A program made the position numbers. Below are positions 42,001 through 51,446 of a stretch of 64,000 nt of DNA, one piece after another. The stretch covers positions 50,902,001 to 50,966,000 of the forward strand of contig OZ249437.1 in NCBI GenBank assembly GCA_965235115.1. The letters are read 5' to 3'. This DNA comes from Laetmonice hystrix. Its lineage: Eukaryota. Numbering within the stretch: the first letter of the stretch is position 1; each line of letters starts with the position of its first letter.

Positions 42001-45000
42001 CATTGGCTCCCAGGTGCTCCCCATTCTCTAGGATGTCATCTAGTTATTTCAGAACTTTCAGGAGTGAACATCATGCCATCATTAGGGCAACAAAATATAG
42101 CCTCGAGGATTCTGTTTGTAGTCTCAGCTTCTACTCTTAGTTAAATGTGAGCTTCTGTGTATAGAGTTGCCTTTTAAAAGATTCATTTTATAAGTGCTGA
42201 TTTAAAGAGGGAGGGGTTTGGGGCTATGGCTGGGAATCAGTGATGCTGGTAAAATGCCAGTTTGTGGAGATGGAGCCAATGAAGGAGCAGCTTACAGCGA
42301 CGGACGGCTCAGCCTTGGTCAGACACCTTAATAGCATTGAGTCGGCATTGATGGCGTGGAGGCGGGCGGCCACCAAGAGGGACGGGTCACTATAGACTGA
42401 AGGTCCACGGCACGAACTCACTCATTTTAATTTCGTTATTATTGTATGCTGGTCGGTCCAGACTAGCCGTGACCTGGGCGCCGGGGTGAGACAGTTCCCC
42501 TCTCAAGACTCTTGATCACGTGAAGGTGGTGTGACCGCGGCTGGGAGTAGTTGTTTTCCAGGGATGTAAATTTCAAAGTAGATTTAAAAATAGAAGAAAA
42601 AATATCCACATGTCATGCGACATCAGAACGTCTGCCATCATCAGTATCGATGATAAATATATCGTGATAATTTTAGCAATATCGGCGTACGTTTTGCAAA
42701 TTTGTTCTGTCGGTTACGTGAGCAAAGGAATTAAAGGCAGGGTAAACACCCACGGCAAGTAAGGTTTCATAGACCAAATGAAACACCAGCATTTAACTCA
42801 GGGCAATAAATGCCACAATTACGTTGTCAGAATGAAGTAATTAACGTGTAACCGCCCGATGTATGACGCCGCTGGTTCTGACCTTGACAGACTCTGCTCA
42901 CAGACCTTGTCTACACGATGTTTGGAGTCCCAACGTTTGTAAACTTCCGAGGTGTTGAACACACAAGCAGAAACAGTTGCGTCACACATCGGGCAGTTAC
43001 ATGTTAATTACTCCATTCAGACAATGTAATTGTGTCATTTATTGCCCTGAGGTAAATGCTGGTGTTTCATTTGGTCTACGCAACCTTATTTGCCGTGGGT
43101 GTTTACCCTGCCTTTAATGAATTGACTAGTAAAATTTCAACTGAGACGATGTCTTTGCTTTACCGGAAATGCCACTTTAGTTCCGGTTAAGAAACATCAG
43201 TACCGGCAATGTTACTTCATTAATGCGAGTAAAGATCAGCACTGGAGAAGATATGTGTGTTTCAAGGAAAGAGCGTTAACATTTCATCAGCTGTAATGAG
43301 CACAGTCGTTTTTGTATACTAATAGCCTGACGTAGTTAGAGGAGAATTAGATATAAGCTGACGCTGTCTGAACACTGTTAATGTACACTGGTGGAAGAGG
43401 AGGGGGCGTAACGCATAAGGGCTGACTACAGGGGACTACAGACTGTATCAATACCATATTATACATATAAGGCGTGAAAAGCGCAGTTTTTCTCCAGTAA
43501 ATCAGCAGAGTGTCGCTTATAAATAGATATATGCGCCTGGAGACCAGGCTGCGCTATAACTATAAGTAGTTGAAGGTCATTCCTGCTACGAGTCCCGACT
43601 GCATTCAGTCACCCCAAGAAAATTTATGATGTGTTTTGTCATAAGGTGTCTTTTATGGTTGCAAATAGACTTTTTATTATTCTGGTGTGATTATGTCATG
43701 AAATCTACAGGATCCTTTAAGAAAAGGTCCACTTCAGTATTTATGTTTCCTATGTAAATTGTTGTAAGCTATGTCAAATGGCTTATGCAGGGAAATCTGA
43801 TATAGGCATGAGGCGGTGTGGGGTGTTGGAGAAAGGCTGGGTGTGGTTAGAAACAGGTCGTTTGCCTGAACACGTATCTGAAGATGTTCTCTGTCCGTTT
43901 CAGCTATAAGGATGAGATAACTCGACTCCGTGAGATGTTGGGAGTGCGGGATACAGGCGGGGGGTTCATCAGTCCAGGGCCACGCCTCAACTGGACCAAG
44001 GACAGGGCAAAGTGACACTGGTGCTTGTATCTCTTAAAAATCAACTGGGACGAAAAGAACAGTCGTAGTAGAAGAGTAAAAATTAAATGTGTGTAGTGAC
44101 ACAGCTACATAAAGTTACATGTTGAGATAGGAGTCAAAAACACATTGAAGAGTAGAATACATATTGATTAATTGATTGATTGATTGATTGTTTGATGATA
44201 TGACCATTTTATTCCAGGCGTGCCACAGCTGAGTATTATTAAAGAGGTAATAATGCTGTATTTATTTCGGGATACTTGTTCTTGCTAATCTTGTTTAATG
44301 AAGTTGTTTTTGTTTGTGAACAGTTATCGGATAGTTTGCATGAGTTGGAATCTGTGAACATTTATGGTTTTGATATAATATGCTGCTAGAAAATACTATA
44401 TATCTGATAAATCAATATAAAAATCTAGTATTAAATTACTTTATTAAGGGCCCAAAGTCATTTCTGTCTATTACTTGGATAATTTATCATACCATTTTAG
44501 GTATTGTCTTCCTGTGCTGAGACTTTTTCTCTGTTCACAATAATGAAAAGAAAACGACAGGATTATGTGCATGAGCTTCCCGACCAATTACCAGTTAATA
44601 TGAAATCAATGTCATATTGTGTCTGAGAATCTGTGATGATCTAGTTGTTTGGGCCAGCGGATGTAATTCATTAAGCCAGTATCCACCTATTGTGGTTGCA
44701 AGCAATGCCAGCGATTGCAAGGCTGGCAAGGTACGTATTATTCTTTAGTCTGTGATACTATAGGTACGCCAGGCGTAATGTATTAGTGCCTGCTCCTTTT
44801 ATCTCTGTGTACGCATAATGAACTCGACAAAAAGAATATTGACTAGAAGTCCAGTTAAATTATTGTAGCAAAATTCGGTGTATAGGTCTATAGATATTGC
44901 TGTGAAGTATAATTGGTCTCAAGTCTTTTATTACTCTGGCTGCATTTCACACGGTGGCTGCTATCGATTGACATTAGTGTTATAGATTGAAGTGGTTTAC

Positions 45001-48000
45001 ATTTGTCAGGACGGTTACTGACACTACAAAATGGTTAAACTTAAAAAAAATATTTACTTCAGATGAGTGATACTGCTCAAAACTGGTTCTTTTCTTAAGT
45101 TATACACTTACATTTGAAAATCGATATCTGTAAAGCTACTCGCAGCGACATTTGAATGGTGTGTTAAATATAGTAGGTAATGTGTTTTGACAGTCTAGAT
45201 CAAATTAACCGTTTTCTGTCCAAATGATGAAGGTGTTCCCGACCTAGGTCAGTTTACCCCGCGAGACGGATCTAAATAGCATATTCCTATCACTGTTCTG
45301 TCCTTGTGTGCACGACTGCTTTGAGAATTTGAGAAGATGACGCGTAGAGCCATCCTTCATAGGATCGTTGGTGAGGTTAACTCGCCCACTTTTGCCGGTT
45401 CATAATGTGCATACTGGCCGAAGGAATGAAAGGAAACATTTTATTGAATAATATTGTAGAAAAGGAAAATATTCTGTCTGCTGCGCCACTTTGTATTAGA
45501 TAGAAATCGTGACGTCACCATGGGGGGAAAAAGACGGTGCGCCTTTCAAATAAAGACAGTCCCAGCTAGAAGTACTGCCTCTTTGTCGTTTCTGATGTTT
45601 GAAAGGTAAAATGTAGGGCTGGTTGAATTGCAGAATCATAGCGTAACTTGTGCCCCATCCCCCCCCCCGTGCCATTTCTATGATTGCCCTCGCCAGTGCT
45701 CCGAGACTGGGACGTTAAAACCTTTGGTATGTTCAGCTGTGTCTGTGCGGCTGCACATAAAAAGCCCCCTTTACTTTTTTCTTTGGCAGGTGGCTGATTT
45801 CGTTCTCACTTCATCCTTACCCGCTACTTGGGGGGGGGGGGGGCAGCGAGGAGCAATAAGTCCGACCTAGATGAACAAGTTATAAAATGTATTGTAGCCC
45901 GGACTTAATATGGCTGAAATATTGCGGCAAGGTTGGAAACCCCCACCAGTTCTTCCCTTCGCCAAGTTTAATACGGGATTCACTGTGCGTCCTTGCTACA
46001 GTTACAGGGAATTCTGCGTTCTCTGGTTCACAGGACACCATAGCAATCAGACTAAACTTCTGCTGGCGGTTAGGTAGATTTAAGAGTATGTTAAATCGTG
46101 ATTGGAGAAGGATTAGGCTTTTGGTCCGGTGACGGACTGTCAACGAACTGAGTTGTCGGAACCGTCGGCTTGATCCCCTGACCGGGGTAATATTGGGTGT
46201 TGATGATATTTCTTTAGATAAAGTCTAAGGCTGGGTTTAGTGTGCTTAACCTTCAACTTCTGATTACTGGATTATTTCATCTTTATTACACTGATCATCA
46301 TCGGGCATTGCGGACTTATAATCCTCCTTTAGTTATGACAATGTTGTGGTACTCTCTGTTTCTTTAATACAAATGATGCGTGTTCCAAGAAGGACCCCCC
46401 CCCCCCGAACAAAAAAACAAAAATAAAATACATTCGCACCTCAAATACACACGCACACGTCCACGTTCTTGACTGCTAGTCGATTGCATACATTAACACT
46501 TTTGCAGTTGTTATAGATTGCTCAGTTAAAGGTGCTATTCGTCTCGCACAGAATGGCATTTCTCCTATCATACCTTGTGCACATAGTACTAGAAAAATTT
46601 CCTACCGATACCATTGGCCTGATAAACCTTCTATTAGTTTGTGTGCAGCATTTGAAACCTATCTCGGTGCGCACCGAGATAGAGCCATTTCCTATGGTGG
46701 GGCGTGTCAGGGTCTCCACAGGCCTTCTGAGAGAGCCCCATTTGTGCCGTTATCCATGAGAAATTTTGATTTCCTTTGTTGTGAATCTATTTCCATGATA
46801 GGTGGGATCACATAAACGTCAACAAAATTAAAAATAAAAAAATTGAATTTTTGTTCACGAATAGCACCCTTTAAGTATAAATGTGGTAATTTAAGCTCCT
46901 ATATTTTCTGAATTTTCCCCATATTCCTATATTTTGAAAACGCCAGCGTACTTGACACCCTTATATTAGTGCCCTGCCTTCAGTTTGCGTGCTGTGGAAA
47001 TCACCGACATTAATTCGTATTCACCAGAACTGTTAATCGTCGCATCTTACCACGAGGTTTTTTTCTCTCTTTTCAATGAAGGAAATGAACAGGAAATTGT
47101 GGCTACCTCGATAGAGAAAACTGAAATGTGGTCAGACAGGTCTCCGTAGTTTTCATCAGAGACCTCATAGAACGTGATCAAAATATAGTGAGAGTAGATG
47201 GGCAACTAGTGCTGGTACTAGAACTCTCATTTTTTAAAATTTGAAATGGAAAACCTCGCTATGGTAGTGTTTTTCGGTATGAAGTCTGGTTGGGTTAAGG
47301 TGGTATGTGGCTTCAAGCCATAAAACAATAGTTTGAGGGAGTCGAGTTGAGTCGGAGTAAAAGGCGACAGGTGCGAGCAGACAGAAATGATATAGGTACA
47401 GGTTGAACTTTAAGCTTCGGGGTATTGAAATAACCAGTTAGTTTCGTGCATTATCGTACAAAAGCATTGGTATCATTAAGTTTGAAATTATTGGCCTCGT
47501 TTCCTGACAAAAAAAGTTTCCTCTTTGCAAGACTTTGCGTAGGCTCGGTAGTTGGAGTTGCTACAGGGGCTGTATTCACATTTTGCTGGGTCATCCAAAT
47601 ACCTAAACAGATTTAGAATGCACTTCGTTGGCAAACTTAGATTGACCATTTACCCCAGCGATGGCCTGGGTCTCAGCTCAGTTATCTATGGGCTTCGCTA
47701 ACAGGATGTGCAAATTAAATCTCTAAAACCTTAATCAAACGGTGTCGTTAAGAGATGTGAGAGGGGTCTATAGGTCGTCGCATTTGTGTTTTAAGTAGGC
47801 CCAATTGGTTGTGTCGTCCAGTGGTCCACCTGCTCTAGACGTGAACTGCTCGTGTAGGATGGCACCTATACAACGGCTGTTCACTTGCAGACCAACTCGT
47901 AGAGCCTGCTTTAGATGAAGCAGTTAATCCCCCCCCCCTTGGTGTTAAAGTAATATCCTAATCCCGAATTTTCTCACACTGGTTCGGTCTTATCCTAACT

Positions 48001-51000: not shown

Positions 51001-51446
51001 TTTAAGAAAAGGTCCACTTCAGTATTTATGTTTCCTATGTAAATTGTTGTAAGCTATGTCAAATGGCTTATGCAGGGAAATCTGATATAGGCACGAGGCG
51101 GTGGGGAGTGTTGGAGAAAGGCTGGGTGTGGTTAGAAACAGGTCGTTTGCCTGAACACGTATCTGAAGATGTTCTCTGTCCGTTTCAGCTATAAGGATGA
51201 GATAACTCGACTCCGTGAGATGTTGGGAGTGCGGGATACAGGCGGGGGGTTCATCAGTCCAGGGCCACGCCTCAACTGGACCAAGGACAGGGCAAAGTGA
51301 CACTGGTGCTTGTATCTCTTAAAAATCAACTGGGACGAAAAGAACAGTCGTAGTAGAAGAGTAAAAATTAAATGTGTGTAGTGACACAGCTACATAAAGT
51401 TACATGTTGAGATAGGAGTCAAAAACACATTGAAGAGTAGAATACA

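What the first reader, a model, noticed from the sequence alone, without database searches (positions are those of the whole stretch)
43904..51300. The gene's last exon exists twice, identical, in a 7.4-kb tandem duplication
Seen: the phase-2 exon that completes the conserved HLK-S-YKDEITRLREML tail is at 43904-44015 and again at 51189-51300. Coding sequence and acceptor are identical, while the surrounding copies differ by about 1-2% and several indels. Each copy carries its own downstream region, which differs in (ATTG)n length and several substitutions. Inference: two alternative last exons encoding the same peptide with different 3' UTRs, a recent copy-number variant, or two haplotypes assembled in tandem.
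Basis: partly seen in the sequence, partly recalled or inferred. Interest (0 to 1): 0.65.

Follow-up and report, generated by a model that had tools for sequence, protein, structure and literature searches.

The report
Young tandem duplication of a terminal exon
A 7.4-kb stretch holding the last coding exon and downstream region of a cilia-related kinesin-like gene (CCDC78-like) of a marine-invertebrate-type genome is present twice head to tail; it is most likely a young, harmless duplication that leaves the protein unchanged.

Summary
Self-alignment shows a head-to-tail repeat, copy 1 at 39460-46868 and copy 2 at 46869-54167, with 104 substitutions in 7269 ungapped columns (1.43%) and 16 indels. 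The 112-nt exon (43904-44015 and 51189-51300) is identical in both.

It is the true last exon of a CCDC78-like gene (kinesin motor plus DUF4472). A profile of homologues' C-terminal tails hits only these two places in the six-frame translation (E 1.6e-6; next best 0.57). It joins the donor at 20728/20729 in phase 2.

The exon's identity is not evidence of selection: P(no difference in 112 nt) is 0.16, and three longer identical runs lie in non-coding parts.

The unit is bounded by a 6-nt direct repeat, CTTTAA (chance 0.0016). There is no N gap, and the unit shares no repeat with the rest of the window. This favours a real microhomology-mediated duplication over haplotypes placed in tandem, but only reads can settle it.

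Both copies keep the same acceptor and poly(A) hexamers, so the proximal copy should serve nearly all transcripts. The first copy-specific base lies 147 nt past the stop codon. The feature is ordinary and of low interest.

The parts
11558..20728 (+). Upstream coding exons of the CCDC78-like gene (about 16 tblastn segments, first at 11558-11662, last at 20565-20728)
   Evidence: tblastn of 6 named homologues. Pfam Kinesin on 11824-12114 (E 2.5e-12) and DUF4472 on 15025-15384 (E 2.2e-10).
20565..20728 (+). Penultimate exon, ending ...YIDTHLK + 'ag'; donor AG|GTGAGT begins at 20729
   Evidence: P0014 residues 824-878.
20729..43903 (+). Last intron to the proximal acceptor (23,175 nt; 30,460 nt to the distal acceptor at 51188)
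   Evidence: P0014 residues 878 and 879 are contiguous across it.
39460..46868 (+). Duplication copy 1 (7409 nt): last 4444 nt of the intron, the terminal exon, and 2853 nt downstream
46869..54167 (+). Duplication copy 2 (7299 nt), head to tail with copy 1 and with no spacer
43904..44015 (+). Terminal coding exon, proximal copy: (S)YKDEITRLREMLGVRDTGGGFISPGPRLNWTKDRAK*
   Evidence: Tail HMM E 1.6e-6. tblastn P0014 residues 879-900.
51189..51300 (+). Terminal coding exon, distal copy, identical to the proximal one
39460..39465 (+). CTTTAA at the left end of the unit
46868..46874 (+). Junction: one extra C (46868), then CTTTAA opening copy 2
54168..54173 (+). CTTTAA immediately after copy 2 (first bases of the unique right flank)
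44082..44087 (+). First poly(A)-type hexamer ATTAAA, +67 from the stop. Its twin is at 51367-51372. Further ATTAAA at +223/+231 and +415/+423, and AATAAA at +1534/+1546.
   Evidence: These are hexamer matches only; usage was not tested.
44163..44196 (+). (ATTG)8.5 in copy 1; the twin (ATTG)10.5 is at 51448-51489. This is the first copy-specific difference downstream of the stop (+147).
42730..43118 (.). Foldback element inside the duplicated intron part (151-nt arms, 91% complementary, 87-nt loop). The twin is at 50066-50403 with 51 nt missing from the loop.

Best explanation
This is a real and fairly young tandem duplication of 7.4 kb in the 3' end of a CCDC78-like gene.

Origin. The ancestral single-copy segment comprised the last 4.4 kb of the 23-kb final intron, the terminal coding exon, the 3' UTR and about 2.85 kb downstream. 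It was bounded by two CTTTAA hexamers. A microhomology-mediated event (template switch/replication slippage or alternative end joining) between them produced the head-to-tail pair, leaving one extra C at the junction. The copies have since drifted apart neutrally to 1.4% plus indels.

Consequence (inferred). Both copies carry the same acceptor, coding sequence, stop codon and poly(A) hexamers, so the protein is unchanged. The proximal copy is transcribed first, and terminal-exon definition plus cleavage there should end most transcripts. The distal copy is therefore largely a silent spare that only read-through transcripts could use.

Status of the steps. Shown: the anatomy, the homology of the tail, the microhomology, and the lack of excess conservation. 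Inferred: the mechanism of origin, the reality of the junction in the organism's DNA, and which copy is used.
For: - Head-to-tail collinear repeat with no spacer and no N.
- The CTTTAA direct repeat at the unit's start (39460) and just past its end (54168) scores L = 6. L >= 6 occurred in 0.16% of 200,000 random position pairs 7409 nt apart in the same window.
- The unit has no similarity to the rest of the window on either strand at E <= 1e-3. There are therefore no long flanking repeats for homologous unequal exchange, and nothing that an assembler's overlap step could have joined.
- Passages of PMC4056370 report microhomology of >= 2 nt at 41% of 644 Drosophila copy-number-variant breakpoints, and list microhomology with added or deleted bases as a rarer class (2%).
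- The exon is the gene's true end. A tail HMM from 11 homologue tails (6 lineages) hits only 43851-44012 and 51136-51297 (E 1.6e-6, next 0.57). P0014 residues 878 and 879 are contiguous across the intron.
- Differences are spread over the intron part (1.25%) and the downstream part (1.76%) with no excess conservation at the exon.
Against: - No reads, depth, second haplotype or related genome could be consulted, so the junction is known only from this assembly.
- Divergence of 1.4% with many indels is also what two haplotypes of a highly polymorphic marine invertebrate could show.
- The junction is not a clean microhomology: it carries one extra C (46868) relative to the right end.
- PMC9516828 notes that some false duplications are joined without N through incorrect gap filling.
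- Proximal-copy use rests on general knowledge of co-transcriptional 3'-end formation, not on data from this organism.
Confidence: 0.58

Rival explanations
1. Assembly artefact (false heterotype duplication). The two copies are the two haplotypes of a single-copy, locally heterozygous segment that the assembler or a gap-closing step placed one after the other.
For: Divergence of 1.43% plus 16 indels, including microsatellite and homopolymer length changes, is within what alleles can show. PMC9516828 (abstract and passages) reports that 4-16% of sequence in older assemblies was falsely duplicated, mainly from divergent haplotypes. Of those false duplications, 7-24% lay on the same scaffold, and some were joined through incorrect gap filling.
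Against: [quoted passage not shown] The junction falls exactly on a 6-nt repeat shared by the two ends of the unit (P about 0.0016 per register). That is unexpected for arbitrary contig ends and far too short for an assembler overlap. The unit shares no repeat with the rest of the window that could have misled a graph.
Confidence: 0.25
2. Functional pair of alternative last exons. The duplication is real, and both terminal exons are used in a regulated way, giving the same protein with different 3' UTRs.
For: Each copy has an intact acceptor, stop codon and the same set of poly(A)-type hexamers. Tandemly duplicated, mutually exclusive terminal exons exist elsewhere: the Drosophila pip terminal-exon clusters and the PGRP-LC 3' variable regions (passages of PMC9013439).
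Against: The copies are identical from -81 to +147 around the coding part. With the first ATTAAA at +67, the mRNAs could be identical. Nothing distinguishes the two acceptors except position. No complementarity was found between the unit and the rest of the window that could act as a selector structure (E <= 1e-3). Divergence elsewhere looks neutral. No expression data are available.
Confidence: 0.1
3. The repeated 112-nt segment is not an exon of this gene; the match to the conserved tail is chance.
For: tblastn alone gave a weak hit (P0014, E 0.11), and only 1 of 6 homologue queries reached E <= 1 there. A word-based search with the exon peptide found nothing. The intron would be 23 kb, whereas the gaps between the earlier tblastn segments are about 0.1-2 kb.
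Against: The profile of homologue tails scores 25.2 bits, E 1.6e-6, at exactly these two places, with the next best at E 0.57. The join is in phase with a consensus donor AG|GTGAGT and a pyrimidine-rich acceptor. It restores the motif YIDxHLxxYKxEIxRLRxxLG seen in 6 lineages, and no homologue residues are left unaccounted for.
Confidence: 0.03

Closest known systems
Microhomology-mediated tandem duplications (copy-number variants formed by template switching/replication slippage or alternative end joining)
   Same: Head-to-tail copies in the same orientation with no spacer. A short direct repeat (6 nt) bounds the ancestral unit, no long flanking repeats are present, and there is a one-base irregularity at the junction. 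Breakpoint classes are described in PMC4056370 (passages).
   Different: This is known here only from one assembled sequence. There is no population or read evidence, and no outgroup to show the single-copy state.
False heterotype duplications in genome assemblies (PMC9516828)
   Same: Two adjacent near-identical copies differ by about 1-2%. Part of a gene is duplicated, which would inflate exon or gene counts.
   Different: There is no assembly gap between the copies, and the junction lies on a microhomology. Depth, k-mer and read-pair criteria could not be tested.
Tandemly duplicated, mutually exclusive terminal exons (Drosophila pip; 3' variable regions of PGRP-LC), as reviewed in PMC9013439
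   Same: Homologous terminal exons lie in tandem, each with its own acceptor and 3'-end signals.
   Different: Those clusters are diverged, give different products, and are reported to be chosen through competing RNA structures. Here the coding sequence and the first 147 nt of 3' UTR are identical, and no selector complementarity was found.
CCDC78 (long form: kinesin motor + DUF4472 + coiled coil), a cilia-tip/deuterosome protein (PMC12796433)
   Same: Kinesin and DUF4472 matches occur in the window's exons. The exons are collinear with 900-aa CCDC78-like proteins of hemichordate, amphioxus, clam, sea star, sea urchin and shark, and the C-terminal motif is shared.
   Different: Identity is only about 38-48% in the kinesin exon (56% at most to unnamed fragments), so no close relative is available. 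Function in this organism is untested.

Membership tests
Microhomology-mediated tandem duplication | Two copies head to tail, same orientation, no intervening sequence | tested here: met
   copy 1 ends at 46868 and copy 2 starts at 46869.
Microhomology-mediated tandem duplication | Short identical sequence at the start of the unit and immediately after its end | tested here: met
   CTTTAA at 39460-39465 and 54168-54173. L = 6, chance 0.0016. One extra C at the junction.
Microhomology-mediated tandem duplication | No long flanking repeats (which would instead indicate non-allelic homologous recombination) | tested here: met
   the unit has no blastn match (word 11, E <= 1e-3) to the rest of the window.
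Microhomology-mediated tandem duplication | Junction present in native DNA molecules | not testable with these tools
   No reads or second assembly were available.
False heterotype duplication (PMC9516828 criteria) | Assembly gap between the duplicated pair | tested here: not met
   No N in the 64-kb window. The criterion comes from passages.
False heterotype duplication (PMC9516828 criteria) | Half read depth, haplotype-specific 1-copy k-mers, discordant read pairs | not testable with these tools
   No read data.
Mutually exclusive tandem terminal exons | Two or more homologous terminal exons, each with acceptor and 3'-end signals | tested here: met
Mutually exclusive tandem terminal exons | Copies diverged so that products differ | tested here: not met
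   Coding sequence identical. No difference from -81 to +147.
Mutually exclusive tandem terminal exons | Both exons found in transcripts | not testable with these tools
   No transcript data.
Mutually exclusive tandem terminal exons | Competing RNA structures that select one copy | tested here: inconclusive
   No complementarity between the unit and the rest of the window at E <= 1e-3. Short selector stems would escape this test.
CCDC78 family, long form | DUF4472 (PF14739) domain | tested here: met
   Exon ORF 15025-15384: E 2.2e-10, 41.6 bits against a cut-off of 26.6.
CCDC78 family, long form | N-terminal kinesin motor domain | tested here: met
   Exon ORF 11824-12114: PF00225 E 2.5e-12, 46.9 bits against a cut-off of 29.3. 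A second exon is below the cut-off (18.7 bits). The domain was tested exon by exon only.
CCDC78 family, long form | C-terminal YIDxHLxxYKxEIxRLRxxLG tail | tested here: met
   The motif was derived here from 6 of the 12 homologue C-termini inspected.

The most novel reading that the evidence does not exclude
The pair is a snapshot of the birth of alternative terminal exons. A real, still near-identical duplication is used at both copies: the distal one by read-through transcripts, giving a longer pre-mRNA and, where distal poly(A) sites beyond +147 are used, a distinguishable 3' UTR. This would be raw material for later divergence of the C-terminal tail or the 3' UTR of a cilia-tip kinesin-like protein.
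Probability: 0.1. Interest if true: 0.35.

Novelty: new member of a known kind. Interest (0 to 1): 0.17.

Why it matters
The main value is for annotation. The gene should be modelled with one terminal exon, the proximal one, and the distal copy flagged. Otherwise the 30-kb alternative intron or a spurious second 3' end may be annotated.

If the duplication is real, it is an ordinary example of how terminal-exon pairs arise, with a cleanly readable microhomology junction. If it is an artefact, it is an unusual gap-free false duplication worth purging.

Neither outcome changes the protein. The CCDC78-like gene itself is of some interest as a long, kinesin-bearing form of a cilia-tip protein.

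Tried and rejected
- **Word-based protein searches.** All three found nothing: the DUF4472 exon against longer proteins, the last-exon peptide extended to 41 aa against longer proteins at E <= 10, and the 149-aa ORF at 40844-41293 inside the unit. The genome's own proteome and close relatives therefore seem absent from that collection, and no annotated model of this gene could be consulted.
- **RNA genes.** Rfam at gathering thresholds gave 0 matches in the window. ARAGORN gave 0 tRNAs.
- **Pfam on long ORFs.** All 5 ORFs of >= 90 aa in copy 1 gave no family, and so did 8 of the 19 such ORFs in the intron upstream of the unit. The other 11 intron ORFs were not scanned. No second gene was found in the unit.
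- **Selection on the exon.** Rejected.
- **Recombination between flanking repeats.** Rejected.
- **Another candidate last exon in the 23-kb intron.** Rejected.
- **Taxon.** Not pursued beyond 'non-vertebrate-like metazoan', with best named matches in hemichordate, amphioxus, bivalve and echinoderms. I do not take the window for human.
- **Not done or not available.** The joined spliced coding sequence was not built or searched; all searches were exon by exon. Additional file 2, Fig. S4 of PMC9516828, which shows the true allele-specific tandem duplication, was therefore not seen.
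Full report
**What is there**

The window is eukaryotic, has no N and has a GC content of about 35-48%. I do not take it for human. The best named relatives of its genes are from a hemichordate, amphioxus, a clam, echinoderms and sharks, at about 38-48% identity.

Reading 43800-44200 and 51085-51485 shows the 112-nt segment 43904-44015 repeated exactly at 51189-51300. The same acceptor (ttctctgtccgtttcag|C) and the same stop codon are present in both.

Self-blastn shows this is part of a head-to-tail repeat in three collinear blocks:
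- 39460-42300 = 46869-49704, 98.8% identical
- 42376-42888 = 49712-50224, 98.2% identical
- 42952-46874 = 50237-54173, 97.4% identical

A global MAFFT alignment gives these figures:
- Copy 1 is 39460-46868 (7409 nt) and copy 2 is 46869-54167 (7299 nt).
- There are 104 substitutions in 7269 ungapped columns (1.43%). Over a range six bases longer, the count is 106, of which 55 are transitions and 51 transversions.
- There are 16 indel events covering 171 columns.
- The largest indels are 13+55 nt at 42301-42375 and 51 nt at 42899-42949, both present only in copy 1. Copy 2 has two extra ATTG units and 12 extra G.
- Tandem Repeats Finder confirms (ATTG)8.5 at 44163-44196 against (ATTG)10.5 at 51448-51489.

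**Is it really the gene's last exon?**

Pfam on exon-bearing ORFs gives Kinesin (11824-12114, E 2.5e-12) and DUF4472 (15025-15384, E 2.2e-10). A full HMMER scan with the 78-aa kinesin-like exon found 281 proteins at E <= 1e-3. Among them are ~900-aa proteins that their sources name CCDC78 or CCDC78-like, or leave uncharacterised: Glandiceps talaboti, Branchiostoma, Ruditapes philippinarum, Asterias rubens, Lytechinus pictus and Chiloscyllium. Four of these that I scanned all carry Kinesin + DUF4472 + Microtub_bd (4 of 4).

tblastn of six of them against the window lays out about 16 collinear segments from 11558 to 20729. For P0014 only (1 of 6 queries at E <= 1), residues 879-900 then fall on 43905-43970 and 51190-51255 (59% identity, E 0.11). 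Residues 878 and 879 are contiguous across the gap, so no exon is missing.

Of the 12 homologue C-termini I printed, 6 end with the motif Y[IV][DQ]xH[LM]xxY[KR]xE...LR..LG. The other six end differently (P0017, P0029, P0077, P0092, P0103, P0118). An HMM of the part after 'HLxx' was built from 11 tails. These represent six lineages, because five of the sequences are cluster-mates of the representatives. Searched against every stop-to-stop piece of the six-frame translation, it hit only 43851-44012 and 51136-51297 (E 1.6e-6, 25.2 bits). The next best hit had E 0.57.

The penultimate exon ends ...cac ctc aaa ag|gtgagt, with its last exon base at 20728. 'ag' plus the 'c' at 43904 gives Ser, and the frame continues YKDEITRLREMLG... 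to the stop codon. The final intron is 23,175 nt to the proximal copy and 30,460 nt to the distal one.

All homology work was done exon by exon. The joined coding sequence was not built or searched.

**Does the identity of the exon mean anything?**

It does not. With 120 events (104 substitutions plus 16 indels) over 7269 columns, P(no event in 112 nt) is 0.16. The identical run containing the exon (43823-44162, 340 nt) is only the fourth longest. Runs of 490, 449 and 349 nt lie in the intron and downstream parts. Divergence is 1.25% in the intron part and 1.76% downstream.

Five of five ORFs of >= 90 aa in the unit have no Pfam family. The longest (149 aa) has no homologue in the word-based search. 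Rfam and tRNA scans of the window are empty. The only recognisable functional element in the unit is the terminal exon with its 3' region.

**The junction**

The three boundary sequences are as follows:
- The left flank meets copy 1 as ...gggcg|CTTTAAgtat.
- Copy 1 meets copy 2 as ...agcac-c|CTTTAAgtat.
- Copy 2 meets the right flank as ...agcac|CTTTAAaggg.

The ancestral unit was therefore bounded by the direct repeat CTTTAA, and the junction carries one extra C (46868). In 200,000 random pairs of positions 7409 nt apart in the unduplicated part of the window, a junction identity of >= 6 nt occurred with frequency 0.0016. Allowing a one-base slip either way, that is about 0.005.

The unit has no blastn match (word 11, E <= 1e-3, both strands) to the rest of the window. 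No long repeat flanks it.

This is the signature of a microhomology-mediated event. Breakpoint classes are described in passages of PMC4056370: 41% of 644 breakpoints had microhomology and 2% had microhomology with added or deleted bases. It is not what butt-joined contig ends or an assembler overlap would give.

[quoted passage not shown] The same passages mention a true allele-specific tandem duplication at haploid-level depth.

I therefore put a real duplication at about 0.7, split between 0.58 for 'distal copy mostly silent' and 0.10 for 'both used'. I put an assembly artefact at 0.25. Without reads this cannot be closed.

**How it most likely works**

Shown: both copies have identical acceptors, coding sequence and stop codon. 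They also share the same poly(A)-type hexamers: ATTAAA at +67, +223/+231 and +415/+423, and AATAAA at +1534/+1546.

Inferred from general knowledge of co-transcriptional terminal-exon definition, not from any call: the proximal copy is made first, and cleavage there ends most transcripts. The distal copy, 7.3 kb further on, is then reached only by read-through.

The protein is the same either way. The first copy-specific base downstream is at +147 (the ATTG array) and the nearest upstream is 82 nt before the acceptor, at 43822. If the +67 signal is used, mature mRNAs from the two copies could not be told apart.

Known clusters of tandem terminal exons, such as Drosophila pip and the PGRP-LC 3' regions (passages of PMC9013439), are diverged and are selected by competing RNA structures. 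Neither feature is seen here.

**What stayed unchecked**

The following could not be examined:
- read depth, spanning reads and the alternate haplotype
- transcripts
- paper supplements

**Verdict**

This is an ordinary, probably real and selectively neutral tandem duplication of a terminal exon, with a cleanly readable microhomology junction. Interest is low.

Noticed in passing
P0105 and cluster-mates (shark CCDC78); window 11558-20728: Shark proteins named CCDC78 (916 aa) carry a full kinesin motor domain (Pfam E 3.6e-56), as do the invertebrate homologues. Passages of PMC12796433 describe the kinesin domain as absent from vertebrate Ccdc78. The long kinesin-bearing form seems to persist in at least cartilaginous fishes.
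   Followed up: partly
window 20727-20732: If the 23-kb last intron is not spliced, the frame reads ...HLKR and meets a stop codon (tga, 20730-20732) at once. Intron retention or intronic polyadenylation would give a protein lacking only the 36-aa tail. Some homologues (P0017, P0092) also lack the tail.
   Followed up: no
window 10162-11025 and 28579-29440: An ~864-nt repeat occurs in opposite orientations (94% identical). Each copy has ~200-nt terminal inverted repeats at about 83-84% identity, like a foldback or MITE-type element. One copy lies just upstream of the gene and one lies in its last intron.
   Followed up: no
window 42730-43118 (twin 50066-50403): A foldback with 151-nt arms (91% complementary) lies inside the duplicated intron part. 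The loop has lost 51 nt in copy 2, with a cluster of 7 substitutions beside the deletion.
   Followed up: partly
window 27599-28234; 55419-55843; 61201-61613: Three minisatellite arrays: a period of about 63 nt (86-90% identity), 37 nt x 9.8 copies (99% matches), and a period of about 61 nt. The 37-nt array creates long artefactual ORFs at 55340-55998.
   Followed up: no
window 53120-53145 versus 45829 region: A G homopolymer is 26 long in copy 2 and 12 shorter in copy 1. A run of this length is prone to sequencing or polishing error.
   Followed up: no
window 387-728 (-), about 1000-1275 (+), 8418-8864 (-): The first exon of a KTI12-like gene is present (Pfam PF08433, E 2.6e-11). The neighbouring ORFs looked to me like first exons of a dUTPase and an isochorismatase-domain protein. 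That is recalled resemblance only; Pfam gave no match for them.
   Followed up: partly
window 46820-46860 / 54120-54160: An A/T-rich tract (aaaattaaaaataaaaaaattgaattttt) lies 10-45 nt inside the right end of the unit. It is a possible fork-stalling context for the breakpoint.
   Followed up: no
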